A stretch of 64,000 nt of DNA from Somniosus microcephalus (Eukaryota). Location of the stretch: NCBI GenBank assembly GCA_052327205.1, contig CM126216.1:69192001-69256000 (forward strand), in the 5' to 3' direction. The notes under the pieces were generated by a model. That model saw only the letters and a list, made by a program, of their open reading frames with translations. It did not search any database and was not told the origin of the DNA. The position numbers and the translations under genes are program-made. Below are positions 23,636 to 62,256 of this stretch, piece by piece (within the stretch, counting starts at the first letter, position 1; each line of letters begins with the position of its first letter).

Positions 23636-24750
23636 TGTTTTTTTATTCATTCACAGGATGTGGGCATCACTGGCAAGGCCAGGATTTATGGCCATCCCTA
23701 GTTGCCCTTGAGAAGGTGATGGTGAGCAGCCTTCTTGAACCGCGGCAGTCTGCGTTGTGAAGGTACCCCCATAATGTTGTTAGATAGAGAGTTCCAGGAT
23801 TTTGACACAGCGATGATGTAACAACGGCAATGCATGTCCAAGTCAGGATGGTGTGTGACTTGGAGGGGAACTTGGGAGATGATGGTGTTCCCATGCATCT
23901 GCTGCCCTAGGTGGTGGAGCTCATGGGTTTGGGAGGTGCTGCGAAGAAGTCTTGGCGAGTTGTTGTAGTGCATCCTGTAGATGGTACTGCAGCCACGGTA
24001 CGCCGGTGATGGGGTGGACGGACGTTTAGTGGATAAGATGCTGATCAAGCGGACTGCTTTTTCTGGATGGTGTTCTTGAGTGTTGTCGCAGCTGCATCCA
24101 TCCAGGCAAGTGGAGCGTATTCCATCACACTCCTGACTTGTGCCCTGTAGGTGGTGGAGAGGCTTTGGGAAATCAAGAGCAACGTTCCCTCATAGGTGCA
24201 CGGGCGCGCAGCCACGCATCAATCCGGAGGTCCCGCACAGGCCTCTCACAAGCTGAAAGAGATACTGTGCATGCGTGGCCGCTGGACCGCACATGGGAAA
24301 AAAAATTAGAGGGAACATTGGTCAAGAGGTGAGCCACTCGCCACAGAATACCCAGCCTCTGACCTGCTCTAATAACCATGGCATTTATGTTTACATAGAA
24401 TTACGTAGGATATGCAGCACAGAAACAGACCATTCGGCCCAACCAGTCTGTGCAACCGTTTATGCTCCACTCAAACCTCCTCCCATCTTTCCTCATCTAA
24501 CTCTATCAGCATAACCCTCTATTCCCTTCTCCCCTCATATGCTGATCTAGCTTCCCCTTAAATGCATCTACACTATTCGCCTCAACTACTTCATGTGGTA
24601 GCAATGTGGTTGGTTTAGTTGAGTTTCTGGTCAATGGTGACCCCCCAGGATGTTGATGGTGGGGGCACTCTTGATGATAATGCCATTAAATGTCAATGAG
24701 AAGACGATTCGGCTTTCTCTTGGATATGGTCTGTGCCTGGCTTGGAAAAT
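23636..24750 (-). mobile_element. CR1/L2-clade LINE 3' part with nested MITE and CR1 tail
   Basis: Same family as 16655-18056 (HHHLLKGN*; QRLGIL). CR1 tail fragment at ~24395-24605. Confidence 0.8.
24180..24320. mobile_element. Short hAT-type MITE nested in LINE
   Basis: TIRs CAACGTTCCCTC / GAGGGAACATTG; 8-bp TSD ATCAAGAG / GTCAAGAG. Confidence 0.85.
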
Positions 24751-25079
24751 GGAGTGATTTTAGCCTATTGCCATTCTGCCGAGATTTGCGCCAGTTTTTA
24801 ACCATTTAGAACTGACATACACTAGTGCACGAAAATTGGACCCCATATGATTAAAAACACTTTTGCTCCTTTGATAAATTGGCTCCGAACATTTCCTCAG
24901 TGTTTGCAGTTCTGAGCCATCACCACGCGTTACTAAAGTTGAACATGTCTCAGCCACAACATACCATCTGCGTGTAATTCTAGTTTGGTTATTTGATTTC
25001 AAGCCGTGCACTTTTTGTTGTTGCAGTGGGGCAGCTCAAGCAATTGCACTCAGTCCTTCCCATTTGTGGACGGTTGTTG

Positions 25080-25214
25080 TTGTTGGTGGTGGGTGGAGTC
25101 CCTTTCTGGGAATGCGAGCTGCGCCGAGCCGCTGACTGACGTGCGGAAGGGGCGGGTCAGGTGTCGCGGTGGCTGCGGAGCCGGAGCAGAGAGAACCCGG
25201 GGATAGCAGAGGCA
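25080..25214 (+). promoter_or_regulatory. SWAP70: SWAP70 CpG-rich proximal promoter / 5' UTR
   Basis: CpG-rich stretch just upstream of the ATG; adjacent TGACGT (25137-25142), CGGAAG (25144-25149) and GGGGCGGG (25149-25156). Confidence 0.65.
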
Positions 25215-25313
25215 ATGATGGCGCTTCGAGAGGAGCTGTTGAAAGTTATCTGGCATGCGTTCACTGCCCTGGATGTCGACAAATGCGGCAAGGTGTCCAA
25301 GTCCCAACTTAAG
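25215..25313 (+). CDS. SWAP70: SWAP70 coding exon 1 ([33 protein letters not shown])
   Basis: Matches the SWAP70/DEF6 N-terminal EF-hand-like region; 99 nt; ends at AAG|GCGAGT (GC donor). Start could be the second ATG at 25218. Confidence 0.93.
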
Positions 25314-25964
25314 GCGAGTTTGAGGCTCTTTCTGTTGAGTTGAGTTGTGCTGTGTTAGACTCCAGTTGCTGCCCTCCCCGGCCGAAGAGCTGCCAGTCTC
25401 TTCTTCTGCAGGCTGCTCCTGTGGGCTGACTCCTTTAATCTTACCTGTTTGTAAACACCATTTCCGTTTTCCGCCAAGGCTGTGGGACTTGGGATCTAAG
25501 ATCACAAATGGGATTTTGAAACCAAAAGTGGTTAAGATTCTTAAAGGAGTGACTCGATGTTTGAGTAAGTGTATTTGGTGAAAGCTGGGAGCTAAATCTG
25601 CCTTTGAAAGCGACCGGAGATCAACTGGGGGAGTTAATGCTTAACACTTCTAAGTAATTTTCAAAGTCCATTCACCAATCCGACTTTTTTTTCTGTAAAA
25701 TACAGCGGATTTAACAGTTATTTTGTCTTTATAGAAGGGTTCTTTTTAATGATCTAGGTTTTTGTGGGCCAAGAATAACGGGCTAATTTTCTGGCCAGTC
25801 TTCTCGTTTGCAGTGTTACTTTTTTTTTGGATGGTGTCCTATTTAAGGTACATTAAGGGATGGGCAGCTGCCAAGTATTGACAGTATTCCGTGTGCTGTC
25901 TGATATATTTAAATACCGACAGGGGGCGCCAACAAACCCTTAGGCTGTAGTGAGATTGTCTCTT

Positions 25965-27463
25965 GGGCTGGAATTTCCTGTGTGTTTGCGTCCAGAGACG
26001 CGTGTAATCGGGGCGTAAAGCAAACACACGGGGGAAAAATTCGGTATCGCCTCATTTGGGGCACCATTATTGGCAGTGCGCAAAGTTTAGCGCCTGGCGC
26101 TAATTATCGCCTCCGACAGCAAACTTGGCTTTTATCGCCCCTGGAGGTGATTGGAGCGCTAAATCAGGCGCTACACACCTCTCAAGGCGCTAAGGCCGAG
26201 GAGCGAGGCGCTACCTCAGAGGGCGGGCGAAGCTCATGTGATGTCAGTCAGCAATGGAACACAGACACACTGGCACCGGCCAGTTCTTAAAGGGGTGGGT
26301 TGATCTTGCTCTCCATCCACATCCTGCTCATTGCAGCCTTGAATCTCGGCCTGGAGAGACCTGTACATCAAATCTGCTGGAAAGAACAATGGAGAGACCC
26401 AAGGGAAGAGCTCAGAGTGCAGCCCCCACAATCTCTTCTAAATCGATACAAGGAAGGGCAAATCAAAATGAACCTGCAAATTACTGCTCAGTACCCAAAA
26501 CTCCTTCACACAGTGTTGAATCTCTCCAGAAGTCTCTCTCTCTCTCTCTCTCTCTCAGAATGCGCGGTGCAAAAATGTCACCAACAAAAAAAGGCAGGAA
26601 GTGGCCCCCTTTAAATAGCGCTCCCCCAGTCCCTTTCTGACTGCAGAACGCTCCCCTCAACCTGTCGTTGCTAGCGGCAGGCGGTAAGGCAGGGGGCGCC
26701 ACTCAATATCTGGTCCGAGGCGCTTCCGGGGCGTTGTGCACTCGACTGACGTCACGATCTGCCGGCGCAAGAGATCGTGGCGGTAGCGTTTAATGCCGCC
26801 GCAAAATGTCTAGTTAATTTTGCGAGAGGTGCAGATATCGCCGCGCCCGGGCGCTAGTTGCTTTGCGCCCCACTTGGCACCCTCTTAAGGCGCTAACGGG
26901 AGGCGCAAACAACTGAATTTTTCCCCCACGGTGTAAAATAGCGAGGAAGCCTGGACGTAAGGGCATTGCGCACCTAATTATGCTATAGCCGAATATCCTG
27001 GCTCCTTTGCACCCATCCATCGATCCTTGTGCCTGAATGCACAGCTCATTATAATGACTCTGCCCCCAGTCTAAAGAGCCACACACTCGAATTTCCTGGA
27101 ATTACGCTGGTTATATATTTCTTCTGACTGAGACTTGCACTGTATTTTCTGTGTTTTTGAATGCAATTAGTATAAGTCACATTAAAAAGTTTAAATGTTC
27201 CACAATTGCAGGTTCGTAAAGATGCTGTGCCCAATGTGCATAAATGAGAGTTAGATGACTTGAAACGTTAACTTTCATACTTAAAGAAGGAATACATGGT
27301 GTGAGTTTGGTGCTTTCCTTGGACCCTGATTATTATGTTCTGGTGTATGTTAATGAGATTGGTAGGAAATTTAGTTGTAAATAGATTTTGGCAAAATGGC
27401 TGCATGAATGGGCGTAATTTCAGTTGTAACTTCTCAATCATGCCCCAACAGGAAATTCAACCC
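25965..27463. mobile_element. Older Harbinger-type element hosting a younger MITE
   Basis: TIR-like ends GGGCTGGAATTTCCTG / CAGGAAATTCAACCC. Confidence 0.6.
26030..26927 (+). mobile_element. ~900-bp Harbinger-type non-autonomous element (family A, copy 1)
   Basis: TIRs GGGGGAAAAATTCGGT / ACTGAATTTTTCCCCC; probable CAC TSD. Reverse-orientation copies at 48896-49633 and 52485-55162. Confidence 0.85.
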
Positions 27464-28873
27464 CGTTAAAGAGTGTTTCACAACGAAGGGTTTACGTGCA
27501 TTCCATAGCTTCCTGAAATATATCGGTGCGTTTGTGTTGATGTGCACCCCAAACATAGAAACATAGAAGATAGGAACGGGAGTAGGCCATTTGACCCCTC
27601 AAGCCTGCTCTGCCAGTCAATGAGATCATGGCTGATCATCCAAACTCAGTACCCTGTCCACTTTCATCAATGGGCAAGTGGAAGTATAACTACACCCTTA
27701 ATTCCATCTTCTTTCTCTTCTGCCAGATAGCATATTTTAGAAATTATCTTTAGGATGTATAATAACTAATTCCATTCTATAATTTTAATAATTGTAACCA
27801 GCCCACCTCTCCTGTGATAATGTGTAACAAGGCCCCAGGTCCCATCCCTCTTTGCTGAGTTAGCTGACCTCAGCATGGCATTGAGGTGCCACAGTTGGCG
27901 TCAGTGCCTTCCACGATGGGGAGGGGAAAAATCAGCCAACTTTGTTTTTGCCACTTCAGTGACCCCTGCTGCAAAGGCCACACGTGGATGTTGAGGTTTG
28001 GGCTGAACTGTGATGCGTCATACAGCCAAATAGCCTGCCAACGTCTATGATCTTGACTTGCACCTGAAGAGTAACCACTTGAGTAGGGCACTGCAGGACT
28101 TGGTATGAGCTATTACTTTTAGGGGGGGAAGTAAAAATGAAAGAAACCATTGCCTTTCAAATGGAAATGAGGGGAAGGAAGAATATCTTGTTATTAAACT
28201 TGATTTTTAATCTCTAGCAAAGCACAGTAATAAATAACCAGTGCCAGGGAAGGCAATCAGACGGAATGAGACAATACTGCACATTGACACATATTCACGC
28301 GTGCTGGAAAACAAGTTCCTCCGTGGGGAGAATCAGTCAAGCAGAAACACATAAACACACAGAGTACCAGTCAGGTGCTGAGAGCATTTGGAGCACTACT
28401 GCAGCTGAGATCAGCTACCCCAGTATAGACTGGGGTTTGAACCTCAACCACCCTGGCCTGCATGAGTCACCTAAGCACCGGATAAACTTTTTGAGTCATA
28501 GAGGAGGCCCAGTTGTTAATCTGTTTTTGCCCTGTTTGTATCCTTGGGGCAGACTGGTATTCCATGAATAAAAGCATTAAAAGTTGTTGAGGATGTGTTG
28601 AACTTTGACTGTTTGTGTACTGTGAGTGACATGCATTGGTTTTGCTGGGAAAATTTGAGTGTCTTGAGGCTTTTTGGGTTAATCAAGTTGTGAGGTTTTT
28701 ATTGCGTATTTTTAACTGCCTGAATACTGCCTAGCGACACATGCAGAGTTGATTTGCTCCTCCTATTCATACTTTTTGTACTAATATACCATTCCACAGA
28801 TAATAGGAGCGCCCTGCTACTGCATCCAACTGCCCATTCTTCATATGTGAGCCTATACCGTGAGCGCCAGCAG

Positions 28874-31660
28874 TAGGGTTGCAAAGGGGTGGAAAGTTTC
28901 CGGTAAATTTCCGGAAATTTTCCACGGGAAGTTTAGCTTGGGAATTTTGCGCAAAAAAGCACATGCTAGCATAATATTGTTTTTTTTGTATTTCTTTTTT
29001 TTCCACAGGTCCTCTCTTAAAATTACTAACAGAGATGGAATCTTAATTATTAAGGAATTTCTTAATCAATATATGTTTATCTTCTTACTTGGCTTGTTTT
29101 AATAATTACAAGTTTTGTGTGTGACTGTGAACAAATGTGTCCTGATTGGGTGGATGAGCGATTAGCTCCCTCTATTTGTAATATTTGCATATCGAATTGT
29201 GATTGGCCTGCAGGCATCTGTAAGACTGCTGTAGTTTTTTAAGATCCAGGTTAGGGGGCCTGAGGGAAGTCATTTTGTTTTCTGCTGATGTTGTGATGAT
29301 GCAGTAAGTAAATCAGACTTTATACCAAATAAACCAGTTACTTGTTGAACTCTGTTGTCCTTCAATTTAAAATATACAAAATAATACACTATTGGTGATG
29401 TAGCGTCGTGTGTGTACAGGTCATGCTTCCATCACATGGAGCATCAGCAAAAATGTACTCACCCTGTTGCAATCGTGCTGATCGACCGCAGTTCGACACA
29501 GAGATGAATGCCCTTTATTTCTCTGCATAGAACAATGCCACGTTTACCGTCGGATGTGTGGAAGCATTTTACCCCAGGCATTAAAGATGGAAAGACTGTG
29601 TACATGTGCAAACACTGTAGAAAGCCATATGTAAAGAAAGCCACAAAGATGCAGCAGCATTTATCCAAATGCAACAACTTCACTCAAAGCTCACAGCAGT
29701 CAGCCCAGAGTTCCTCTGCTTTCATTCAAGAAGATGATGGTTCTCATTCAGCATCAGGCTCCTTATCATCAGCAACTCCTGGCCCACTTGGAAGGTTCTT
29801 TGATACAATGGATAACCATAGCCAGAAGAATGCAGATGAGTGCCTTGCTCGAGCTGTATATGCAACAGGCTCACCCCTCATGCTCACAGCCAATGTGTAC
29901 TGGAAGAGATTTTTCAATGTTATTTGCCCTGCATACTGTCCTCCCACCAGACATGCTTTGTCTACTTATTTGCTGGAGGCTGAGTATAACAGAGTCCAAG
30001 GAAAGCTCAAAGAAACGATAGCGATGGCAGACTGTGGTGCAGTTATCTCAGATGGGTGGTCAAATGTACGAGGGGAGGGCATCATAAACTACATCGTCTC
30101 CACTCCTCTCCCAGTGTTCTTCAAGAGCACAGACACGAAGGACAACAGACACACAGGCACATACATTGCTGATGAGCTGAAAGCGGTCATCAACGATCTT
30201 GGATCACAAAAGGTCTTTGCAGTAGTTACTGACAATGCTGCGAATATGAAGGTTGCTTGGGCTCAAGGGGAGGAGGCCTACCCTCATATTACGTCTATTG
30301 GGTGCGCAGCTCATGGGCTTAACTTGCTCCTCAAGGACATCATGGGTTTGAGAACCATGGAAGCACTGTACTAGAGAGCCAAGCAAGTTGTTAAGTATGT
30401 CAGGGGAAAACAGGTAGTTGCAGCAACCTACAACTCCAAGCAAATGACAAAGAACAAGAACACCACACTGAAGCTGCCCAACAACACTAGATGGGGTGGT
30501 GTTGTCATAATGTACAACAGCCTTCTGGAGGGTAAGGAGTCGCTGCAAGAAATGGCAATATCCCAGTCTGGGGATATGGAAACCACCATCAAGAAAATAC
30601 TGCTGGATGATGTGTTTTGGGAGAGAGTGGTTAGCAGCCTTAAACTACTCTCACCAGTAGCATCTGCAATTGCTCAGATTGAAGGAGATGACGCTGTCTT
30701 GTCAGATGTTCTCAGGCTTTTTACTGATTTAAAAGAACAAATCAGCATTGCCCTACCTACATCCCTGCTGCTCAAAGCAGAGGAGAAGGCAATTGTTCAA
30801 TTCATACAGACGCGTCAAGAATTTTGTGTCGAGCCGATTCATGCTGCAGCATACATGCTGGACCCAAAGCTTGTTGGGAGACCAATACTTTCTGGAGAAC
30901 AGATCAACAGCGCTTACAGTGTGATTTCTACCCTCTCACACCATCTCAATCTGGATGTGGGCAAAGTTCTGGGAAGTCTGGCAAAGTTCTCTACCAAGCA
31001 AGGTCTTTGGAATGGGGATGGGATATGGGAATCATGCAAGCATATCAGTGCACATACCTGGTGGAAGGGACTTTGTGCATCTGAGGCCCTGTCACCTATT
31101 GCATCGGTGATACTCCAAATCCCACCTTCATCAGCGGCCTCTGAACGAAACTGGTCACTTTTTGGGAATACGCATACAAAGGTGCGCAACAGGCTGACTA
31201 ACAAGAGAGTGGAGAAACTGGTGGCTATCTGGGCGAACCTACAACTTATTGAGCCAGATACAGAAGTGTCCACCACACAGCTAGACACTGACGCAGAGGA
31301 GGAAATGGACACGTCAGAGCCAGAGTCAGAGAATCAGGAGGAGCAATGATGAGTAGAAGACTCAGAAGACTCCTGAGTAGAAGACTCAAAGGGACAAAAT
31401 AAGGACAAATTACAGGCTAAATAAGCTGACGCTCTTTATTTTATTTTAGATGGGTCTTTTTTGTGGGGGTTCAATAAAGTTCAAAATTATAACCTAAATA
31501 AAGTTTTGAAAGCCTGTTTTTATTTGTATGGAACAGTATGTCTATTTTGATGACAAAGATAATATAAGGGTCAGAGACAAAAACCATCAGTGTGCAAAAA
31601 AACTCAAAATTCCCATGGAAAGTTTCCTCTTTTAAAAATTCCCAGAATTTTGCAACCCTA
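28874..31660 (+). mobile_element. Full-length hAT DNA transposon (2787 bp)
   Basis: Perfect TIRs TAGGGTTGCAAA / TTTGCAACCCTA; perfect 8-bp TSD GCCAGCAG (28866-28873, 31661-31668); GGAAA/TTTCC subterminal repeats; internal transposase. Confidence 0.97.
29535..31349 (+). pseudogene. hAT transposase, ~604 codons, one in-frame TAG at 30372-30374
   Basis: The two ORF-track ORFs share a frame and are open across the gap after the TAG. BED finger (VWKHF..CKHC..HLSKC), ISDGWSN, VTDNAANM, CAAH, TRW, and SAASERNWS in the C-terminal dimerisation region. Confidence 0.93.
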
Positions 31661-32325
31661 GCCAGCAGGCTTAAATACTAAGATAATTCGAGCGCTATTT
31701 TATACAAGACACCTGTAAACATAACCTGCCCCCATTTTAGGACAGCCAGCCCACAAAGTATTTGAAGCAAATTTCTTAACCTAAGTCTGACATTTAGAAT
31801 GATTAATAATGTGGAACAATTGTTAGGCAGCTGCAGAAAAATAACTGGTTTCGAAAAAATACTAGAAGTCAAGGTGGATACGTTATTGTGTGCTGATGGA
31901 CTGTTGACGGAGCAGTTAGAAATACAATGGCAGCCAGCATGGATCTGTTTAAAAACAAGTCCCGTTTGACAAATTTGTGTTTTTTGAAGAAGCGACCAAT
32001 TAATGAATAAAGGGAATGCAGTAGATGTAGTGCATATGATTTCCAGAAGTATTCAACAAGATGTCTCACGGGTTGTTACAAAAATTCAGGCCTGTGAGTT
32101 AGGAGCAAACCTAACAGTATGGATGGAAAATTGAAGTGGGATGGGGAAAAGGTAAAGCTAATGGGTGTTTCTTGGATTGGAGAAGGATTGGAAATGGTAT
32201 ACCCCCGGGGTCAGTGCCGGCTCCACTTTTGTTCTGAGTATATATAGATGATTTGGCCTTGGACTTGGGAAGCATGTCCATCAAAATGTTTTGATGGCAC
32301 AAAACAGCAAGGAGGACTGTAAAAG

Positions 32326-35300
32326 AAACATACATAGAAACATAGAAGATAGGAGCAGGAGTAGGCCATTCGGCCCCTCGAGCCTGTTCCGCCATTTAAT
32401 GAGATCATGGCTGATCATCCAAATTCAGTACCCTGTACCTGCTTTCTCCCCATATCCCTTGATCCCTTTAGCCTTAAGAAATATATCTAACTCCTTGAAT
32501 ATATTTAATAAGTTGGCCTCAACTGCCTTGTGTGGTAGAGAATTCCACAGGTTCACGACTCTCTGGGTGAAGAAATTCCTCCTCGTCTCAGTCCTAAATG
32601 GCTTACCCCTTATCTTTAGAATGTGACCCCTGGTTCTGGACTCCCCCGCCATCGGGAACATCCTTCCTGCATCTAGTCTGTCTAGTCCAGTTAGAATTTT
32701 ATAAGTTTCAATGAGATCCCCTCTCATTCTTCTAAACTCTAGCGAATATAAGCCTAATCGACCCAATGGCCTGCTCCTGCTCCTATCTCTTCATACGTCA
32801 TTCCTGCCATCCCAGGTATCAGTCTGGTGAATCTTTGCTGCACTTCTTCCATGGCAAGAACATCCTTCCTCAGATAAGGTGACCAAAACTGCACACAATA
32901 CTCAAGGTGTGGTCTCACCAAGGCCCTGTACAACTGCAGCAAGACATCCTTGCTCCTGTACTCGAATCCTCTCGCTATGAAGGCCAACATACCATTTGCC
33001 TTCTTAACCGCCTGCTGCACCTGCATGCTTACCTTCAGCGACTGGTGCACAAGGACACCCAGGTCTCGTTGCACTTCCCCTTTCCCCAATCTATTGCCGT
33101 TCAGATAATCTGTCTTCCTGTTTTTGCCACCAAAGTGGATAACCTCGCATTTATCCACATTATAATGCATCTGCCCAATCACCCAACCTGTCCAAATCAG
33201 AATGGAGTTTCTCTGCATCCTCCTCACAACACATACGCCCACCCAGCTTTGTGTCATCTGCAAACTTGGAGATATTACATCTAGTTCCCTCATCTAGATC
33301 ATGAATATATATTGTGAATAGCTGGGGTCCTAGCACCGATCCCTGCGGTACCCCACTAGTCACTGCCTGCCACTCGGAAAAAGACCCGTTTATTCCAACT
33401 CTTTGCTTCCTGTCTGCCAACCAGTTCTCTATCCAAGTCAGTACCTTACCCCCAATCCCATGTGCTTTAACTTTGCATGCCAATCTCTTACGCGGGACCT
33501 TATCGAAAGCCTTTTGAAAGTCCAAATACACCACATCCACTGGCTCTCCCTTATCTATTCTACCAGTTACATCCTCAAAAAATTCCAGTAGATTAGTCGA
33601 GCACGATTTACCTTTTGTAAATCCATGTTGACTTTGTCCGATCCGGTCACTGTTTTCCAAGTGCTCTGTTATTACATCATTTATAATGGACTCTAGCATT
33701 TTCTCCACTACCGATGTCAGGCTTACCGGTCTATACTTCCCCGTTTTCTCTCTACCACCTTTTTTAAATAGTGGGATTACATTAGCAACCATCCAATTCA
33801 TGGGAACTATTCCAGAGCCTATAGAATTTTGGAAGGTGACCAGCAATGCATCTACTATTTCTAGGGCCACTTCCTTAAGTACCCTAGGATGTAGATTATC
33901 AGGCCCTGGGAATTTATCGACCTTCAATGCCGTCAATTTCCCTAACACCATTTCCCTACAAATACTGATTTCATTCAATTCCTCCCTCTCATTAGATCCT
34001 ATGTTCCCCAACATCTCTGGAAGGTTATTTGTGTCCTCCTTTGTGAAGACAGAACCAAAGTATGTATTTAATTGGTTTGCCATTTCTTTGTTCCCCATTA
34101 TAAATTCCCATGATTCTGACTACAAGGGACCTACGCTTGACTTCACCAGTCTTTTTCTCTTCACATATCTACAGAAGCTTTTACAGTCAGTTTTTATGTT
34201 CCCTGAAAGCTTACTCTCATATTCTATTTTCCCCCTCTTAATTAATTCCTTTGTCCTCCTTTGCTGAATCCTAAACTGCTCCCAATCCTCAGGTTTGCTG
34301 CTTTTTCTGGCCAATTTATTTGTCTTCTCCTTGGATCTTATGCTATCCCTAATTTCCCTTGTTAGCCATGGTTGAGTCACCTTTTTTGTTTTATTTTTAT
34401 GCCAAACAGGGATGAACAAATTCTGTAGTTCATCCATGTGATCTTTGAATGGTTGCCATTGCCTATCCACCATCAACCCTTTAAGTAACGTTCCCCAATC
34501 CATCCTAGCCAACTTGCGCCTCATACCATCGTAGTTTCCTTTATTTAAATTCGGGACCCTAGTCTCTGAGTCAACTACTTCACTCTCCATTTTAATGAAG
34601 AATTCTATCATATTATGATCGCTCTACCCGAAGGGGCCTTGCAAAACAACATTGCTAATTAATCCTTTCTCATTACATAATACCCAGTCTAAGATGGCCT
34701 GATCTCTGGTTGGTTCCTCGACGTATTGGTCTAGGAAACCATCTCGTATACACTCTAGGAATTCCTCCTCCACAGTATTGTTACTAATTTAATTAGCCCA
34801 ATCTATATGTAGATTAAAGTCGCCCATGATAACTGCTGTGCCCTTATTGCACGCATCTCTAGTTGCCCGTTTAATGCCATCCCCAACCTCAGCATTACTG
34901 TTTGGGGGTCTGTATACAACTCCCACTAACGTTTTCTGCCCCTTGGTATTTCTCAGCTCTACCCATACAGATTCCACATCATCAGAGCTAATACCCTTCC
35001 TTACTATTGTGTTAATCTCCTCTTTAACTAGCAATGCTACCCCACCTCCTTTTCTTTTTTGCCTGTCATTCCTGAATATTGAATACCCCTGGATGTTGAA
35101 TTCCCAGCCTTTGTCACCCTGGAGCCATGTCTCCGTAATTCCAATTAAATCATATCCGTTTGCATCTATTTGCGCAGCTAATTCATCCACCTTATTACGA
35201 ATGCTCCTCGCATTAAGACACAAAGCCTTCAGGCTTGTTTTTTAACATTCTTAGTCCTTTTAGAATTATTATTTACTGTAGCCCTGTTTGATTTACACCC

Positions 35301-52633: not shown

Positions 52634-54292
52634 GTATATCAAGTATATCAAGTGACATACTTGAACATATTAGCATCGAGAGGGAGGAGGTGCTAGCGGT
52701 TTTAGCAGGCCAAAAGGTGGATAAATCCCCAGGCCCGGACGAGATGTATCCCAGGCTGCTGTGGGAGGCAAAGGAGGAGATTACAGGGGCTCTGACACAA
52801 ATTCAGAACCTCTCTGGCCACAGGGGATGTACCAGAGGACTGGAGAACAGCTAATGTAGTACCATTATACAAGAAGGGTAGCAGGGAGAAACCAGGGAAT
52901 TACAGGCCAGTGAGCCTAACATCTGTGGTAGGGAAATTATTGGAAAAAATTCTGAGGGACAAAATTAGTCTCCAATTGGAGAGGCAAAGATTAATCGGGG
53001 ATAGTCAGCATGGCTTTGTCAAGGGTAAATCATGTCTGATAAATCTGATTGAATTTTTCGAGGGGGTGACTAGGGGGGTGGATGAGGGAAATGCTGTGGA
53101 TGTGGTTTACATGGACTTCAGTAAAGCTTTTGACAAAGTCCCGCATAGGAGACTGGTCAAGAAGGTAAGAGCCCATGGGATCCAGGGTGCCTTGGCGCGT
53201 TGGATCCTAAACTGGCTGAGTGGCAGGAGGCAGAGGGTGATGGTCGAAGGTTGCTTTTGTGACTGGAAGCCTGTGTCCAGTGGGGTACCTCAGGGATCGG
53301 TGCTGGGTCCCTTGTTGTTTGTGATCTACATAAATGATTTGGATGAGAATGTAAAAGGTATGATCAGTAAGTTCGCAGATGACACGAAAATTGGTGGGGT
53401 GGTAAATTGCGAGGAGGAAAGCCTCAGGCTACAGGACGATATAAACGGGTTGGTCAGATGGGCGGAAAGGTGGCAAATGGAATTTAACCCTGAAAAGTGC
53501 GAGGTGATGCATTTTGGACGGACAAATAAGGCAAGGGAATACACAATGAGTGGTAGGACCCTAGGAAGTACAGAGGGTCAGAGGGACCTTGGTGTACATG
53601 TACATAGATCCCTGAAGGCAGCGGAGCAGGTAGATAAGGTGGTTAAAAAGGCATATGGGATACTTGCCTTCATTAGCCGAGGCATAGAATATAAGAGCAG
53701 GGAGGTTATGATGGAGCTGTACAAAACGCTGGTGAGGCCACAGCTGGAGTACTGTGTGCAGTTCTGGTCGCCTCACTATAGGAAGGATGTGATTGCTTTG
53801 GAGAGGGTGCAGAGAAGATTCACCAGGATGTTACCTGGGATGGAGCGCCTCAGCTATGAAGAAAGACTAAACAGGCTGGGGTTGTTTTCCTTGGAGCAAA
53901 GAAGGCTGAGGGGGGACCTGATTGTGGTGTACAAAATGATGAGGGGCATAGATAGGGTAGATAAAGAGGAACTTTTCCCCTTAGTCGGGGGGTCAATAAC
54001 AAGGGGGCATAGATTCAGGGTAAGGGGCAGGAGATTTAGAGGGGATTTGAGGAGGAACTTTTTCACCCAGAGGGTGGTTGGAATCTGGAACTCACTGCCT
54101 GAAAGGGTGGTAGAGGCAGGAACCCTCACAACATTCAAGAAGCATTTGGATGAGCACTTGAAATGCCATTGCATACAAGGCTATGGACCAAATGCTGGAA
54201 AATGGGATTAGACTGGACAGGGATGGATGGGCGGCGCAGACTCGATGGGCCGAAGGGCCTCTTTCTGTGCTGTAAAACTCTATGACTCTATG
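52634..54292 (+). mobile_element. Young 5'-truncated CR1 LINE with 433 uninterrupted RT/C-terminal codons (52910-54211)
   Basis: MDFSKAFDKVPH, GVPQGSVLGPLLF, KFADDTK; repeated ACTCTATG tail; TSD ACTACCGCC / ACTACCACC. Confidence 0.95.
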
Positions 54293-56630: not shown

Positions 56631-59144
56631 CCATAATTTGGTACTAACATGGAATTATTGCGATGGTAAATGGTGTACAAAATTGAATAGTTGCCCTGTC
56701 ACTTTGTCTCTGTGTGGGCACTTCCGCCTTGGAGTCAGAAGATTGTGGGTTCAACCCCGACTCCAGAGACTTGAGCACATAATCTAAGCTGACACTTCAG
56801 TATAGCCCTGATTGGCACAGTAATCTCCCACATGGTATCTTGTCAAATGCTTTCCTAACGTCTATGCACACTCAATCCATTGCATTTCCCCCATCTACCA
56901 GAGACTTCTGTGATGTTTATCAAGCATGATCATCCATTTTGAAATCCGTGTGGATTATTTTTAATGGAAAGCACTGGGATAGAACTGATACCATTCTGGA
57001 CAGAGATTATTATAACAGCAAGCAAATGGAAAGGTGGAATTTAGTGAAAATTTTGCAGAGAATGCACTTCAGTAGAAGTTTCAAATATGTACACAATGCC
57101 TTATTAGTTTGGAGCTTGTACCCTCCCAACTGTATGTGTTATGCCATCTTAGAACTAACGCAGTTGCCCTCACCTTTGTAATCTTTCCTGACTATTTAAT
57201 AATCTATGTATAAATGCTTTTAATCATTTGATTGCCTGCTCCATACAGTCTCCAGTTAAATTAGACAGAAGAAAAGTGAGTAATTAAGAGCACAATTCTG
57301 TCTTCACTCCCTAGAGAGGAAGTCAGTTTCCCCGCAAGGTAAACTGGGCTGGGATTTCAGTTAGAAATTCCCTGCTGGTGTTTTCCGCGTAGTGCATAGT
57401 CTTGCAAGAAATGCATATACAGTATGTTGCATTAACTAATATTTCTATATTCTCCTGATAGACAACAAAAGTTGATTAAAAGAGATGAAAATGTTTTTAT
57501 TTTTTTTAACATTTGGTGCAAATGCAGTACTTTTAACTCTGCTTTTCTGTAACTTGCAACAAACTAGATAGTTCTGCTTTTTAAAGGCTTGGCCTCAAAT
57601 GTATGTTTATGAGCCAGATTTTCCAGTGCAACACTGGCTGCTTTGTGGAGACCAGTGATCTCTAGGTGAACTTCCATTGTTAAGGAACTGTGTTTTAAAA
57701 TTATGGAAAAGCGAGCATTGTTCTGATTTTTTCAACCCTATTTAATTTTGTTCAGAGAGTGCACTCTCGGTTCGTTTATACTTTCCATTGTACTAAGTAT
57801 GTCATTTACAAATACAAAGAAAGGATTATACAGTGTGGTGAACTGCAATTCTTATGGGCTTGGGTTGGGTTCCCTGAAATATAAATTTGGATCACAGGAA
57901 GTGTAATTCTTGTGACAGGGAGAGAGAATTACTTTCAGTATAAATTAAATACTCTTTGATTGCCCCCCTCAAAAATAGAGAAGAAAGGCTTTTTGAAAGG
58001 GTTGCTAAACATATTTCCTTCCTAAGGGGATATGTATTTATTTGCACTGCTGCAGGCCCAAATCCAGCCTGTGGAGATGTGCTGTGTTGGGCTACCTGAC
58101 TGACAGAGTACCCACTCTGACCTAACCATTGAGTCCCTCCTGCCAATTGACTGCTTTTGAGGAGAATCGGTATTGGCTCGTACTTTCTTCTGGATAACAG
58201 TCTTCATGCTGAAATGCACGTCAGTGGTTGGATATTGGCTGACCTAACTTGTATAGAGCCTTTTGTTTTGCAATTTCGAAGTTGAAACTGACATGCAGTA
58301 CAGTATTAGGAAGACTTGCTGATACCAGCCCTTCTCCATAGTAACTAGTCAGACAGTGAGCCAGCTGATATCTCTGCTATGCCACGTTTTATCCAGCGAC
58401 TAGGAAAAGCATAGTAGTGACCTAGGGAGAAATTACTAAGGCATTAATAGCACACTTTTATGACTTAAACATTGCAATGGAAACCTGAATTGTGAACCTC
58501 TTCTCTGCAATTTGTAGTTGGTCTTAACCTCCAATAAGTTAGTTGAGCAACCCTTTAACTTCTGGGCATCTTTGCAAAGGTTACTAATGCAGGACTTCCT
58601 ATGCACCAACACTCATCCTACTTTTATCTTGTCAGCGCAGGAAGGGGCTCTCATTTTATAGTAGAGCATTGTTGAGAAAATCTCCAGCTCATTGTGGTCA
58701 CCTCATGTATGATCATCACCAGTTGGGCTTTTCGCTGTCTAACAGAATCACAGATGATAATTTGCACAGGTAAATCGCAGAAGTCACCTGACGCTTACTG
58801 AGATTATTAGAGGTTAAAGCCAACTACAAATAGCAGAAATTAGGTCCACAATCATTGGGCCCAATTCAGTTTTAGAGAATGTTGAAAATGTTTACATCTT
58901 CTGTGAGAATCGAAGGTCTCTGGTTGGAACAGCCAGCATCCTCCCCCAACCACAGAAGCAAAATTTACTCAAACGCCTACCTCACACCCACAGAGACTAG
59001 CTTCTCCTTGCCAACGCTGCTTCTTGCTCTCTCCTTCCTCTTCCTCTCTCTCCCCTACCTTCTCTCCTTTCTCCTCCTCCCTCCCCATCTCCCCACCCCT
59101 CCTCCTCTCTCTCCTCCTTCCCTCTCCCTTCCTCTCCATCTGCC

Positions 59145-62100
59145 TCCTCTGCCCTCCCGCCTTGGATCAACTATCTCCCTGCCCTCCCACCTTGGTCAAC
59201 TACCTCCCTGCCCTCCCGCCTTGGTCAACTATCTCCCTGCCCTCCCGCCTTGGATCAACTATCTCCCTGCCCTCCCACCTTGGATCAACTATCTCCCTGC
59301 CCTCCCACCTTGGATCAACTATCTCCCTGCCCTCCCGCCTTGGTCAACTATCTCCCTGCCCTCCCGCCTTGGATCAACTATCTCCCTGCCCTCCCGCCTT
59401 GGATCAACTATCTCCCTGCCCTCCCGCCTTGGATCAACTATCTCCCTGCCCTCCCGCCTTGGATCAACTATCTCCCTGCCCTCCCGCCTTGGATCAACTA
59501 TCTCCCTGCCCTCCCGCCTTGGATCAACTATCTCCCTGCCCTCCCGCCTTGGATCAACTATCTCCCTGCCCCCCCCGCCTTGGATCAACTATCTCCCTGC
59601 CCTCCCGCCTTGGTCAACTATCTCCCTGTCCTCCCGCCTTGGATCAACTATCTCCCTGCCCCCCCCCGCCTTGGTCAACTATCTCCCTGCCCTCCCGCCT
59701 TGGATCAACTATCTCCCTGCCCCCCCCGCCTTGGATCAACTATCTCCCTGCCCTCCCGCCTTGGTCAACTATCTCCCTGTCCTCCCGCCTTGGATCAACT
59801 ATCTCCCTGCCCCCCCCCGGCCTTGGATCAACTATCTCCCTGCACCCCCGCCTTGGATCAACTATCTCCCTGCCCTCCCGCCTTGGATCAAATATCTCCC
59901 TGCCCTCCCGCCTTGGATCAACTATCTCCCTGCCCTCCCGCTTTGGATCAACTATCTCCCTGCCCTCCCACCTTGGATCAATGATCTCCCTGCCCTCCCG
60001 CCTTGGATCAAATATCTCCCTGCCCTCCCGCCTTGGATCAACTATCTCCCTGCCCTCCCGCTTTGGATCAACTATCCCCCTGCCCTCCCGCCTTGGATCA
60101 ATGATCTCCCTGCCCTCCCGCCTTGGATCAACTATCTCCCTGCCCCCCCGGCCTTGGATCAACTATCTCCCTGCCCTCCCGCCTTGGATCAACTATCTCC
60201 CTGCCCCCCCGCCTTGGTCAACTATCTCCCTGCCCTCCCGCCTTGGATCAACTATCTCCCTGCCCCCCCCCCCCCCCCAACCTTGGATCAACTATCTCCC
60301 TGCCCCCCCACCTTGGATCAACTATCTCCCTGCCCTCCCGCCTTGGATCAACTATCTCCCTGCCCTCCCACCTTGGAACAACTATCTCCCTGCCCTCCCG
60401 CCTTGGATCAACTATCTCCCTGCCCTCCCGCCTTGGATCAACTATCTCCCTGCCCTCCCGCCTTGGATCAACTATCTCCCTGCCCTCCCGCCTTGGATCA
60501 ACTATCTCCCTGCCCCCCCGGCCTTGGATCAACTATCTCCCTGCCCTCCCGCCTTGGTCAACTATCTCCCTGCCCTCCCGCCTTGGATCAACTATCTCCC
60601 TGCCCTCCCGCCTTGGATCAACTATCTCCCTGCCCTCCCCCCTTGGATCAACTATCTCCCTGCCCTCCCGCCTTGGATCAACTATCTCCCTGCGCCCCCC
60701 CCCCCCCGCCTTGGATCAACTATCTCCCTGCCCTCCCGCCTTGGATCAACTATCTCCCTGCCCTCCCGCCTTGGATCAACTATCTCCCTGCCCTCCCGCC
60801 TTGGATCAACTATCTCCCTGCCCTCCCGCCTTGGATCAACTATCTCCCTGCCCTCCCGCCTTGGATCAACTATCTCCCTGCCCTCCCGCCTTGGATCAAC
60901 TATCTCCCTGCCCTCCCGCCTTGGTCAACTATCTCCCTGCCCCCCCCGCCTTGGATCAACTATCTCCCTGCCCTCCCGCCTTGGTCAACTATCTCCCTGT
61001 CCTCCCGCCTTGGATCAACTATCTCCCTGCCCCCCCCCGCCTTGGTCAACTATCTCCCTGCCCTCCCGCCTTGGATCAACTATCTCCCTGCACCCCCTGC
61101 CTTGGATCAACTATCTCCCTGCCCCCCCCGCCTTGGATCAACTATCTCCCTGCCCTCCCGCCTTGGTCAACTATCTCCCTGTCCTCCCGCCTTGGATCAA
61201 CTATCTCCCTGCCCCCCCCCGGCCTTGGATCAACTATCTCCCTGCACCCCCGCCTTGGATCAACTATCTCCCTGCCCTCCCGCCTTGGATCAAATATCTC
61301 CCTGCCCTCCCGCCTTGGATCAACTATCTCCCTGCCCTCCCGCCTTGGATCAACTATCTCCCTGCCCTCCCGCCTTGGATCAACTATCTCCCTGCCCTCC
61401 CGCTTTGGATCAACTATCTCCCTGCCCTCCCGCCTTGGATCAATGATCTCCCTGCCCTCCCGCCTTGGATCAACTATCTCCCTGCACCCCCGCCTTGGAT
61501 CAACTATCTCCCTGCCCTCCCGCCTTGGATCAAATATCTCCCTGCCCTCCCGCCTTGGATCAACTATCTCCCTGCCCCCCCCGCCTTGGATCAACTATCT
61601 CCCTGCCCTCCCGCCTTGGATCAACTATCTCCCTGCCCTCCCGCTTTGGATCAACTATCTCCCTGCCCTCCCGCCTTGGATCAATGATCTCCCTGCCCTC
61701 CCGCCTTGGATCAACTATCTCCCTGCCCTCCCGCCTTGGATCAACTATCTCCCTGCCCCCCCGCCTTGGTCAACTATCTCCCTGCCCTCCCGCCTTGGAT
61801 CAACTATCTCCCTGCCCCCCCCCCCCCCCAACCTTGGATCAACTATCTCCCTGCCCCCCCACCTTGGATCAACTATCTCCCTGCCCTCCCGCCTTGGATC
61901 AACTATCTCCCTGCCCTCCCACCTTGGATCAACTATCTCCCTGCCCCCCCGCCTTGGATCAACTATCTCCCTGCCCTCCCACCTTGGATCAACTATCTCC
62001 CTGCCCTCCCGCCTTGGATCAACTATCTCCCTGCCCTCCCGCCTTGGATCAACTATCTCCCTGCCCCCCCGGCCTTGGATCACTATCTCCCTGCCCCCCC

Positions 62101-62256
62101 CCCGCCTTGGATCAACTATCTCCCTGCACCCCCCCCGGCCTTGGATCAACTATCTCCCTGCACCCCCGCCTTGGATCAACTATCTCCCTGCCCTCCCGCC
62201 TTGGATCAACTATCTCCCTGCCCTCCCGCCTTGGATCAACTATCTCCCTGCCCTCC
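59145..62256. repeat. 30-bp minisatellite, roughly 100 copies
   Basis: Unit CCTTGGATCAACTATCTCCCTGCCCTCCCG with 29-bp and C-run variants; preceded by a pyrimidine tract at ~59020-59145. Confidence 0.98.

What the first reader, a model, noticed from the sequence alone, without database searches (positions are those of the whole stretch)
28866..31668. Nearly intact, apparently young hAT transposon, one stop codon from complete
Seen: perfect 12-bp TIRs, perfect 8-bp TSD, and a ~604-codon BED + DDE + dimerisation transposase with no frameshift and one TAG (codon ~280, plausibly AAG>TAG). Other DNA-transposon coding remnants in the window are heavily decayed. Inference: a recent invasion, possibly horizontal transfer, with active siblings likely. 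It would be easy to resurrect as a tool.
Basis: partly seen in the sequence, partly recalled or inferred. Interest (0 to 1): 0.7.

Follow-up and report, generated by a model that had tools for sequence, protein, structure and literature searches.

The report
Dead copy of shark-hopping hAT transposon
This is one broken copy among roughly 1,300 of a cut-and-paste jumping gene that spread in two short bursts through a likely shark genome, and a nearly identical version in a clearly different species suggests that it may have crossed between related hosts.

Summary
The anatomy is confirmed: perfect 12-bp TIRs, 8-bp TSD, and a 604-codon hAT transposase with a single AAG>TAG stop. The copy is ordinary. 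The genome holds about 1,100-1,500 family members, and 26 fetched copies have an open ORF. This copy also has 10 missense changes, several at conserved sites, so it is not 'one stop from complete'. The family spread in two pulses, 0.63% and 2.1% from their majority sequences. The closest of 3,437 pairs differs by 0.45%, so I found no sign of current activity. The interesting result lies outside the window. Coded organism B differs 5.4% from this genome at a single-copy flank but only about 0.1-0.25% in the element's majority sequence, and its version is rare here. That points to transfer between related hosts (about 50%). It rests on one flank in one run, and the empty-site test was inconclusive. 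The closest named proteins are teleost (65-75%), so no recent teleost or invertebrate donor was found. Verdict: new member of a known kind.

The parts
28866..28873 (.). Left target-site duplication GCCAGCAG
   Evidence: Sequence; identical right copy
28874..28885 (+). Left 12-bp terminal inverted repeat
   Evidence: 1,106 exact 19-mer left ends in the genome
28889..28947 (.). Left subterminal GG(A/G)AA(A/G/T)TT repeats and an 18-bp-arm palindrome; likely BED-finger binding sites (inferred)
   Evidence: 6 motif hits in the left 177 bp, 3 in the right 160 bp, 0 in the 2,450 bp between; palindrome I5; array length varies between copies
29172..29388 (.). 217-bp 5' segment present in the young subfamily S1 and deleted in the older subfamily S2 (5-bp microhomology, not a GT-AG intron)
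   Evidence: Joint 29171>29389 in contigs of runs X15, X17, X2; genomic S2 copies
29535..31349 (+). hAT transposase pseudogene, 604 codons (613 from ATG 29508): one stop, 10 missense and 2 silent changes against the subfamily majority
29550..29669 (+). BED zinc finger (W9, C25, C28, H42, C46 intact; N35K at a nearly invariant position)
   Evidence: Pfam zf-BED; conservation
29943..30359 (+). DUF659 catalytic region with D173 (30051-53), D233 (30231-33) and the CxxH motif (30303-14)
   Evidence: Pfam E 6e-28; alignment to Hermes at D233 and CxxH; conservation in 56 homologues
30372..30374 (+). Premature TAG at codon 280, private to this copy; cuts off the RW motif, the catalytic glutamate and the dimerisation region
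   Evidence: A at this base in all four runs
30489..30494 (+). RW motif (R319, W320)
   Evidence: Aligned to Hermes TRW; R in 41 and W in 47 of 56 homologues
31050..31232 (+). hAT C-terminal dimerisation region with catalytic E537 (31143-45)
   Evidence: Pfam Dimer_Tnp_hAT E 1e-8; Hermes SSAASER alignment
31607..31643 (.). Right subterminal AAATTCCC-type array, shorter here than in most siblings
31649..31660 (-). Right 12-bp terminal inverted repeat
   Evidence: 1,280 exact 18-mer right ends in the genome
31661..31668 (.). Right target-site duplication GCCAGCAG
24641..26026 (.). Single-copy host DNA used as the yardstick for host divergence (not part of the element)
   Evidence: 24700-26000 is single-copy in G000 apart from about 90 bp of old repeat; a 1,447-bp contig of run X2 shows 74 substitutions and 41 gap letters

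Best explanation
This is a disabled full-length copy of a cut-and-paste hAT DNA transposon, one of about 1,000 laid down in the younger of two short bursts in a genome that is likely a shark's, and the founder of that burst likely moved between related host species rather than only descending with them. SHOWN: ends, TSD, domains, fold, copy number, two pulses (0.63% and 2.1%), near-neutral decay of the copies, amplified internal-deletion derivatives, and near-identity of the element in other coded organisms. INFERRED from Hermes and Ac biology: the transposase binds the subterminal repeats through its BED finger, cuts with D173/D233/E537 via a hairpin on the flanking DNA, and inserts with an 8-bp stagger; it acts in trans, so dead and deleted copies were moved too and the family went quiet. 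This copy cannot make an active enzyme (the stop precedes E537), but its ends are intact, so a sibling's enzyme could in principle still move it (untested). INFERRED, about 50%: transfer between this lineage and organism B's, or into both from a third host, shortly before the 0.63% pulse. The transposon identity and pulse history alone I would put at 0.95.
For: Family: 40 of 40 scored candidates are 96-100% identical and near full length; 1,106 left ends, 1,280 right ends, 962 S1-type and 323 S2-type internal motifs, reversed-pattern controls 0. Fold: AlphaFold model of an intact sibling, pLDDT 87; the top listed Foldseek hits are all Hermes, E 1.5e-14 to 3e-11. Pulses: 55 unselected S1 copies at 0.63% (0.25-1.10) and 24 S2 copies at 2.12% (1.54-2.79); dN/dS among S1 copies 0.69-0.86 depending on the transition weight. 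Cross-species: 20 of 24 listed runs, 11 organism labels, 11 studies hold the ORF at 0.34-0.74 of words, against a ceiling of 0.78 for a perfect majority sequence. B differs 5.4% (95% CI 4.3-6.8) at the single-copy flank but shows only 23 majority differences over 27760-31915, about 18 of them this copy's private changes. B's contigs carry 29620C and 31288G at full depth, whereas 49 of 52 S1 copies here carry G and 49 of 52 carry C at those sites. All 20 further 29620C copies fetched were S2 or S2/S1 chimeras, so B's version amplified separately. Pure descent would need B's copies to be about 4-4.6% (S1) and 6% (S2) diverged, which predicts 10-20 or more private contigs over 279 bp even for 100 copies; at most one was listed.
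Against: The host yardstick is one orthologous contig in one run. The two supporting pieces (18 of 310 and 11 of about 245 differences) lie in or beside repeats. Organism names are coded, so no phylogeny could be drawn. The empty-site test failed for lack of cover. Contigs drop rare variants, so absence of this copy's alleles in B is not proven. The contig-length argument rests on recalled assembler defaults and on an unmeasured copy number in B. Both subfamilies occur in both genomes in similar shares (about 25% S2 here; about 5-20% of depth at most diagnostic sites in B), as shared ancestry would give. The 28 differences between the S1 and S2 majorities (many at CpG sites, dS about 1.6-1.9%) match the 1.5% gap between the pulses, as expected if the S1 founder sat in this or a similar genome. 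PMC7070016 (passages) warns that vertically inherited DNA transposons can look too similar between close relatives. A small recent sub-burst is not excluded: 20 recent copies would be missed about half the time.
Confidence: 0.6

Rival explanations
1. Purely vertical history. A functional master persisted in the common ancestor, the hosts split just before the 0.63% pulse, and each lineage amplified its own copy. The 5.4% flank difference reflects a much faster rate in B's lineage, a fast-evolving locus or a hidden paralogue.
For: Both subfamilies occur in both genomes. The S1-S2 difference fits the elapsed neutral time and is CpG-rich. A few S1 copies here carry one of B's alleles (3 of 52 at 29620, 2 of 52 at 31288). 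All four runs share the window's LINE and SINE repeats. Lineage rates can differ with generation time (own knowledge).
Against: It needs roughly a 6:1 rate ratio and B copies at about 4-6% divergence, which the contig lengths argue against. If B's copies are at most 3% diverged, about 20 or more neutral differences between the masters are expected and at most about 7 are seen. The unique flank beside the insertion is largely uncovered in B at 90% identity, unlike what a very close relative would give.
Confidence: 0.25
2. The element crossed species by rare hybridisation and introgression, then amplified on its own in each lineage.
For: It gives the same sequence signature as transfer between relatives. 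The carriers that were laid share other repeats, so they look related.
Against: 5.4% divergence in single-copy DNA is deep for hybrids in a slowly evolving group (inference). No introgressed host DNA was seen, but none was looked for.
Confidence: 0.08
3. The cross-species signal is an artefact: mixed or mislabelled runs, or trace DNA of the same species in runs labelled otherwise.
For: X1 and X6 show low depth and no cover of unique flanks, as trace host DNA would. A's contigs equal this genome's majority. The labels are coded.
Against: In X2 the element's summed depth is about 10,000 times the single-copy depth and it carries its own alleles at two sites. Three B runs from two samples hold it. 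J, K and F carry further distinct variants.
Confidence: 0.07
4. One reading: a very recent invasion from a teleost or invertebrate, still active.
For: 26 fetched copies have open ORFs, and 25 of the 26 checked rows keep all 13 key residues. In the quick tree the protein sits in a 28-row clade (SH-aLRT 99) whose named members are all teleost. Contigs in runs guessed to be RNA cover the ORF.
Against: The best protein identity is 73-75%. No copy is under 0.24% from the majority and no independent pair is under 0.45%. At the epaulette shark rate of 7e-10 per generation (PMC10587355, passages; another species), 0.63% is about 9 million generations (4.5-45 million). No relative was found in viral contigs.
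Confidence: 0.05

Closest known systems
Hermes (Musca domestica), hAT superfamily; PDB 4d1q, 6dww, 8edg, 8sjd
   Same: Same fold (Foldseek E 1.5e-14, TM about 0.55); BED finger, DDE, CxxH and RW motifs, C-terminal dimerisation region; short TIRs, subterminal repeats, 8-bp TSD with T2/A7 bias.
   Different: Only 17-18% identity; carries the DUF659 signature (SDGW, ERNW); 12-bp TAGGG-type TIR. Oligomeric state not tested.
Unnamed teleost DUF659-type hAT transposases (Labeo rohita RXN06113.1, Paramormyrops, Trematomus, cichlid cluster, Carassius, Silurus)
   Same: 65-75% amino-acid identity, similar length and domains; one supported clade with the query (quick tree only).
   Different: Too distant for recent transfer. 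Their DNA ends were not available, so TIR sharing is untested.
571-aa salmonid protein (LOC106565584) and about 597-aa percomorph proteins
   Same: Nearest by tree path (0.38 to the salmonid protein; 70% identity).
   Different: Fixed length across many species and no dimerisation-domain hit, so they look domesticated (inference, not followed up). The element here is multicopy with TIRs and TSDs.
BuT2 (Drosophila, Tip group; PMC3942097, passages) and other horizontally moved hATs such as SPIN (recalled)
   Same: BuT2 is 2,775 bp with 12-bp TIRs and an 8-bp TSD, has deletion derivatives, and transfer between related species was inferred from element versus host-gene divergence.
   Different: BuT2 has five exons and few copies; this ORF is one exon with over 1,000 copies. 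Sequence kinship to the Tip group was not tested.
Buster-group tools (TcBuster, AnBuster; PMC12637253, passages)
   Same: Similar size and domain order; young natural hATs from fish and arthropods were active in human cells.
   Different: Those were chosen for insertion ages near zero; this family's youngest copies are 0.25% diverged. Central TA in only 2 of 71 perfect TSDs, so not Buster-like by target preference (motif recalled).

Membership tests
hAT superfamily | 8-bp target-site duplication | tested here: met
   Perfect in this copy; 71 of 91 copies perfect, 10 more with one mismatch
hAT superfamily | Short TIRs (10-25 bp) and length 2.5-5 kb (PMC3942097, passages) | tested here: met
   12-bp TIRs, 2,787 bp
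hAT superfamily | DDE triad in an RNase H-like fold with a large helical insertion, CxxH and RW motifs | tested here: met
   D173, D233, E537, C257/H260, R319/W320 conserved in 41-55 of 56 homologues; D233, CxxH, RW and E537 align to Hermes by sequence, D173 did not; fold matches Hermes
hAT superfamily | N-terminal BED finger and C-terminal dimerisation region | tested here: met
   Pfam zf-BED at the cut-off, Dimer_Tnp_hAT above it
hAT superfamily | Subterminal repeats at both ends | tested here: met
   9 motif hits in the terminal 337 bp, 0 in 2,450 bp inside (motif chosen by eye, binding untested)
hAT superfamily | Excision through a hairpin on the flanking DNA | not testable with these tools
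   Inferred from the conserved RW and CxxH motifs only
Ac group of hAT | Target preference nTnnnnAn (motif recalled) | tested here: inconclusive
   T2 in 34 of 71, A7 in 41 of 71, both in 18 of 71: a bias, not a rule
Ac group of hAT | Transposase falls inside the Ac clade | not tested
   No Ac, Buster or Tip reference sequences were in the tree
Buster group of hAT | Target preference nnnTAnnn (motif recalled) | tested here: not met
   Central TA in 2 of 71 TSDs
Tag1-like / DUF659 hATs (label recalled) | DUF659 domain in the catalytic region | tested here: met
   PF04937 E 6e-28; grouping with Arabidopsis Tag1 itself was not tested
Autonomous element (this copy) | Uninterrupted transposase ORF | tested here: not met
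   Stop at codon 280 plus 10 missense changes
Currently active family | Near-identical unlinked copies or polymorphic insertions | tested here: not met
   Closest of 3,437 pairs 0.45%, apart from one locus fetched twice. The only near-identical trio is a tandem duplication with a shared flank. Polymorphism was not testable.
Horizontally transferred transposon | Element divergence far below host divergence | tested here: met
   About 0.1-0.25% versus 5.4%, from one orthologous flank in one run
Horizontally transferred transposon | No orthologous insertions; empty site in relatives | tested here: inconclusive
   The flank beside the insertion was not covered in B
Horizontally transferred transposon | Patchy distribution or a tree at odds with the species tree | not testable with these tools
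   Organism names are coded
Horizontally transferred transposon | Purifying selection between founders (PMC7070016, passages) | tested here: inconclusive
   S1 versus S2 majority: 8 synonymous, 8 non-synonymous; p 0.04-0.07 against neutrality. The two known B-versus-S1 changes are both non-synonymous.

The most novel reading that the evidence does not exclude
A single hAT lineage has swept repeatedly through a clade of cartilaginous fishes by host-to-host transfer. An older wave (S2) and a younger wave (S1) each left near-identical founders in species whose single-copy DNA differs by about 5%, with up to 11 labelled carriers. This would be a datable, multi-species case of transfer among close vertebrate relatives, the range that large surveys leave out, with dozens of naturally intact transposase genes to assay.
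Probability: 0.4. Interest if true: 0.6.

Novelty: new member of a known kind. Interest (0 to 1): 0.36.

Why it matters
The copy itself matters little. The family could matter in two ways. First, large surveys of transposon transfer skip close relatives: pairs under 120 My in PMC7070016 and under 40 My in PMC12400950 (passages). Neither main text contains 'shark' or 'chondrichth' (supplements not seen). The second paper infers that transfer rates rise with relatedness. A tight, datable case among slowly evolving cartilaginous fishes would test this directly. Second, an estimated 90 (30-200) copies have open ORFs, so a DUF659-type vertebrate hAT could be assayed from natural copies without repair. 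Many hAT tools already exist, so the gain there is modest.

Tried and rejected
Intron in the 5' region: the 217-bp joint seen in contigs has CT..CA ends and 5-bp microhomology, and genomic S2 copies carry it, so it is a DNA deletion. 'Ladder of intermediates across species': run X19 (organism F) mixes S1 and S2 alleles, which first looked like an intermediate missing from this genome. But 9 of the first 100 listed matches here had that allele combination; they proved to be 5 S2 copies and 4 S1 copies with short S2 tracts. Mosaics exist here too and the argument was dropped. Direct empty-site test in B: no cover at 28177-28315, 28455-28732 and 31791-31915, no verdict. Expression: no listed holder is on record as RNA; contigs of three runs guessed to be RNA cover the ORF, which shows neither strand nor level. 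Viral vector: no relative in viral contigs. This weakens the bound on B's copy divergence from about 1% to about 3.5%. The 30 best hits were set aside as an age sample because they are biased (0.44% against 0.63%). L108 (190 bp matched) was left out of the divergence count. The careful protein tree did not finish; only the quick tree is cited. Paper searches listed no description of this family or of hAT transfer among sharks; Repbase and Dfam could not be searched, so it may already be catalogued there.
Full report
OBSERVATION. An 8-bp duplication GCCAGCAG (28866-28873, 31661-31668) flanks a 2,787-bp element with perfect 12-bp inverted ends. One reading frame runs from ATG 29535 to TGA 31349, 604 codons, broken only by TAG at codon 280. 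Pfam finds zf-BED, DUF659 and the hAT dimerisation region. The best solved-structure matches by sequence are four Hermes transposase sequences, with the TDN, CxxH, TRW and SAASER motifs aligned. An AlphaFold model of an intact sibling (L006; pLDDT 87) matches Hermes first in Foldseek, E 1.5e-14. A GG(A/G)AA(A/G/T)TT motif occurs 9 times in the terminal 337 bp and never in the 2,450 bp between.

THE COPY IS ONE OF MANY. The host genome G000 (6.45 Gb) gave 2,571 candidates, of which 40 were scored; all 40 are near full length at 96-100%. Exact patterns count 1,106 left ends, 1,280 right ends, and 962 plus 323 copies of two internal variants, with reversed-pattern controls at 0. I estimate 1,100-1,500 copies. 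Of 91 fetched copies with both ends, 71 have a perfect 8-bp TSD and 10 have one mismatch; T2 (34 of 71) and A7 (41 of 71) are favoured and central TA is rare (2 of 71). The host is probably a cartilaginous fish: among the named animal hits of the window's CR1-type reverse transcriptase, the highest identities are Chiloscyllium 66%, Hypanus 64% and Pristis 58%, against about 44-55% for birds and turtles. Earlier unchecked notes say the same.

NOT ONE STOP FROM COMPLETE. The stop is private (0 of 29 other copies). Against its subfamily majority the copy also has 10 missense and 2 silent changes. N35K hits a BED position that is N in 38 of 39 ungapped homologues; K433 is K in 17 of 17 close homologues; V168G and V245G replace positions that are always aliphatic or M in those 17. 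Repair is also unnecessary: 22 of the 30 best hits and 5 of 60 unselected left ends have an open ORF (26 distinct copies), which scales to about 90 (95% CI 30-200).

TWO CLOSED PULSES. To avoid the bias of best hits I took the first 60 left ends on contig C1 and 20 hits of the second variant. Fifty-five belong to subfamily S1, 0.63% from its majority (0.25-1.10). Twenty-four belong to S2, at 2.12% (1.54-2.79). One short match was dropped. The window copy is S1 (15 differences in 2,490 unmasked sites). dN/dS among S1 copies is 0.69-0.86, close to neutral. The closest of 3,437 pairs is 0.45% apart, except one locus fetched twice. That makes a recent sub-burst of 50 or more copies unlikely (about 94% power) but not one of 10-20. 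At the epaulette shark rate (7e-10 per generation; PMC10587355, passages; a different species), S1 is about 9 million generations old (4.5-45 million). Recurrent internal deletions amplified as groups (for example reference positions 836-1431, 818-1339, 1182-1273), which shows mobilisation in trans. S1/S2 chimeras and short conversion tracts exist, as gap repair from non-allelic templates would give (inference). The S1 and S2 majorities differ at 28 sites (8 synonymous and 8 non-synonymous in the ORF) and by a 217-bp 5' deletion in S2. Teleost homologues favour the S2 residue at most informative sites, so most change fell on the S1 branch.

OTHER ORGANISMS. No close protein relative turned up: the best hits are 65-75% and the named ones are teleost (only the 7,993 best word-sharing candidates were scored). 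In a quick tree of 57 rows the query sits in a 28-row clade (SH-aLRT 99) whose named members are all teleost, which hints at an old exchange that I cannot date. Near-identical DNA is widespread: 20 of 24 listed runs, 11 coded organism labels, 11 studies, hold 0.34-0.74 of the words, where a perfect majority sequence would hold 0.78. I laid 7 of these runs. All four also carry the window's LINE and SINE repeats, so they look like related hosts or contain such DNA. Contigs of A and D differ from the window copy by exactly the number of its private changes (11; 8, 2 and 1). E has one contig over nearly the whole element with 27 substitutions. J and K, from runs only guessed to be RNA, are S2-type with the 217-bp deletion and two further changes.

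THE KEY CONTRAST. In run X2 (organism B) a 1,447-bp contig at depth 6 covers 24641-26026 with 74 substitutions and 41 gap letters. That stretch is single-copy here, so B differs by 5.4% (4.3-6.8) in orthologous non-coding DNA. Over the element, B shows 23 majority differences, about 18 of them this copy's private changes. The rest include 29620C and 31288G at full depth (14 rows were not shown, so I bound B's own differences at about 3-7, or 0.1-0.25%). Those two alleles are rare in S1 here (3 of 52 and 2 of 52), and 20 of 20 further 29620C copies were S2 or chimeras. So the two genomes amplified near-identical founders separately. Pure descent would place the host split just before the 0.63% pulse, require about a six-fold faster rate in B, and leave B's copies 4-6% diverged. 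Simulation then predicts 10-20 or more private contigs over 279 bp for only 100 copies, and hundreds for 1,000; at most one was listed.

AGAINST. This is one orthologous contig in one run. The empty site could not be seen. Contigs hide rare variants. The simulation uses recalled assembler behaviour and an unmeasured copy number. Both subfamilies occur in both genomes. The S1-S2 difference fits vertical persistence in a shark-like genome. PMC7070016 (passages) excluded close relatives for exactly this risk. I put transfer at about 0.5, descent with unequal rates at 0.25, and introgression and artefact at under 0.1 each.

MECHANISM. Shown: terminal structure, catalytic motifs, fold, TSDs, trans-mobilised deletion derivatives, neutral decay. 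Inferred from Hermes (PDB matches; PMC10368747, search listing only) and Ac/Ds (recalled): BED binding to subterminal repeats, hairpin-type excision, insertion with an 8-bp stagger, and extinction of the burst as defective copies pile up. Untested: any present activity, expression, or oligomeric state.

COMPARISON AND VERDICT. It works like Hermes and meets every testable hAT criterion. It fails the Buster target motif, is inconclusive for the Ac group, and carries the DUF659 signature (the Tag1-like label is recalled, not tested). Four paper searches listed no description of this family or of hAT transfer among sharks. Repbase, Dfam and the papers' supplements were not seen, and a supplement species list could bear on that claim. 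It is a new member of a known kind. The copy is ordinary; the possible transfer among related hosts is the part worth following. Interest 0.36.

Noticed in passing
window 59144-62256: A 30-bp tandem array of about 102 copies at 92% matches, stop-free in all three plus-strand frames over long stretches (ORFs of 719-926 aa); probably a by-product of a stop-poor unit.
   Followed up: no
window 52796-54211: A 471-aa open CR1-type reverse transcriptase frame; highest named animal identities are chondrichthyan.
   Followed up: partly
window 32340-35245: Minus-strand LINE with reverse transcriptase and endonuclease remnants, very high depth in all four runs.
   Followed up: partly
L174, L175 (G000:C1:323503700-323517200): Three copies 4.8-5.2 kb apart, only 1-4 differences, sharing the same left flank: a recent tandem duplication, not transposition.
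   Followed up: yes
L165, L166, L167, L171, L172, L181, L194: S1/S2 mosaics: short tracts of S2 alleles inside S1 copies and S2 copies with S1 3' parts, suggesting gap repair or conversion between non-allelic copies.
   Followed up: partly
L083-L142: Recurrent amplified internal deletions (reference positions 836-1431, 818-1339, 1182-1273) form Ds-like groups; L094 and L136 carry insertions of about 4.4 kb.
   Followed up: partly
P0006 cluster; P0021-P0081 clade: A 571-aa protein of fixed length across many salmonids, and proteins of about 597 aa in many percomorphs, lack the dimerisation-domain hit and are the query's nearest tree neighbours: likely domesticated transposases of unknown role.
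   Followed up: no
P0003, P0004, P0005, P0013: Related transposases of a mormyrid, cichlids and a notothenioid are joined by very short branches (0.008-0.03), which hints at transfer among distant teleosts.
   Followed up: no
window 29113-31193 (run X17, organism K): One 1,869-bp contig from a run guessed to be RNA spans most of the ORF with only a 3-bp gap, S2-type; depth falls off near candidate AATAAA sites at 31473 and 31497. A weak hint of a transcript only.
   Followed up: partly
window 29621 (run X4, organism D): D's long contig begins exactly one base after the diagnostic site 29620, which may mean that D holds both alleles in similar amounts.
   Followed up: no
window 28937 and 31606: Subterminal repeat arrays vary in unit number between siblings far more than the substitution rate would suggest.
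   Followed up: no
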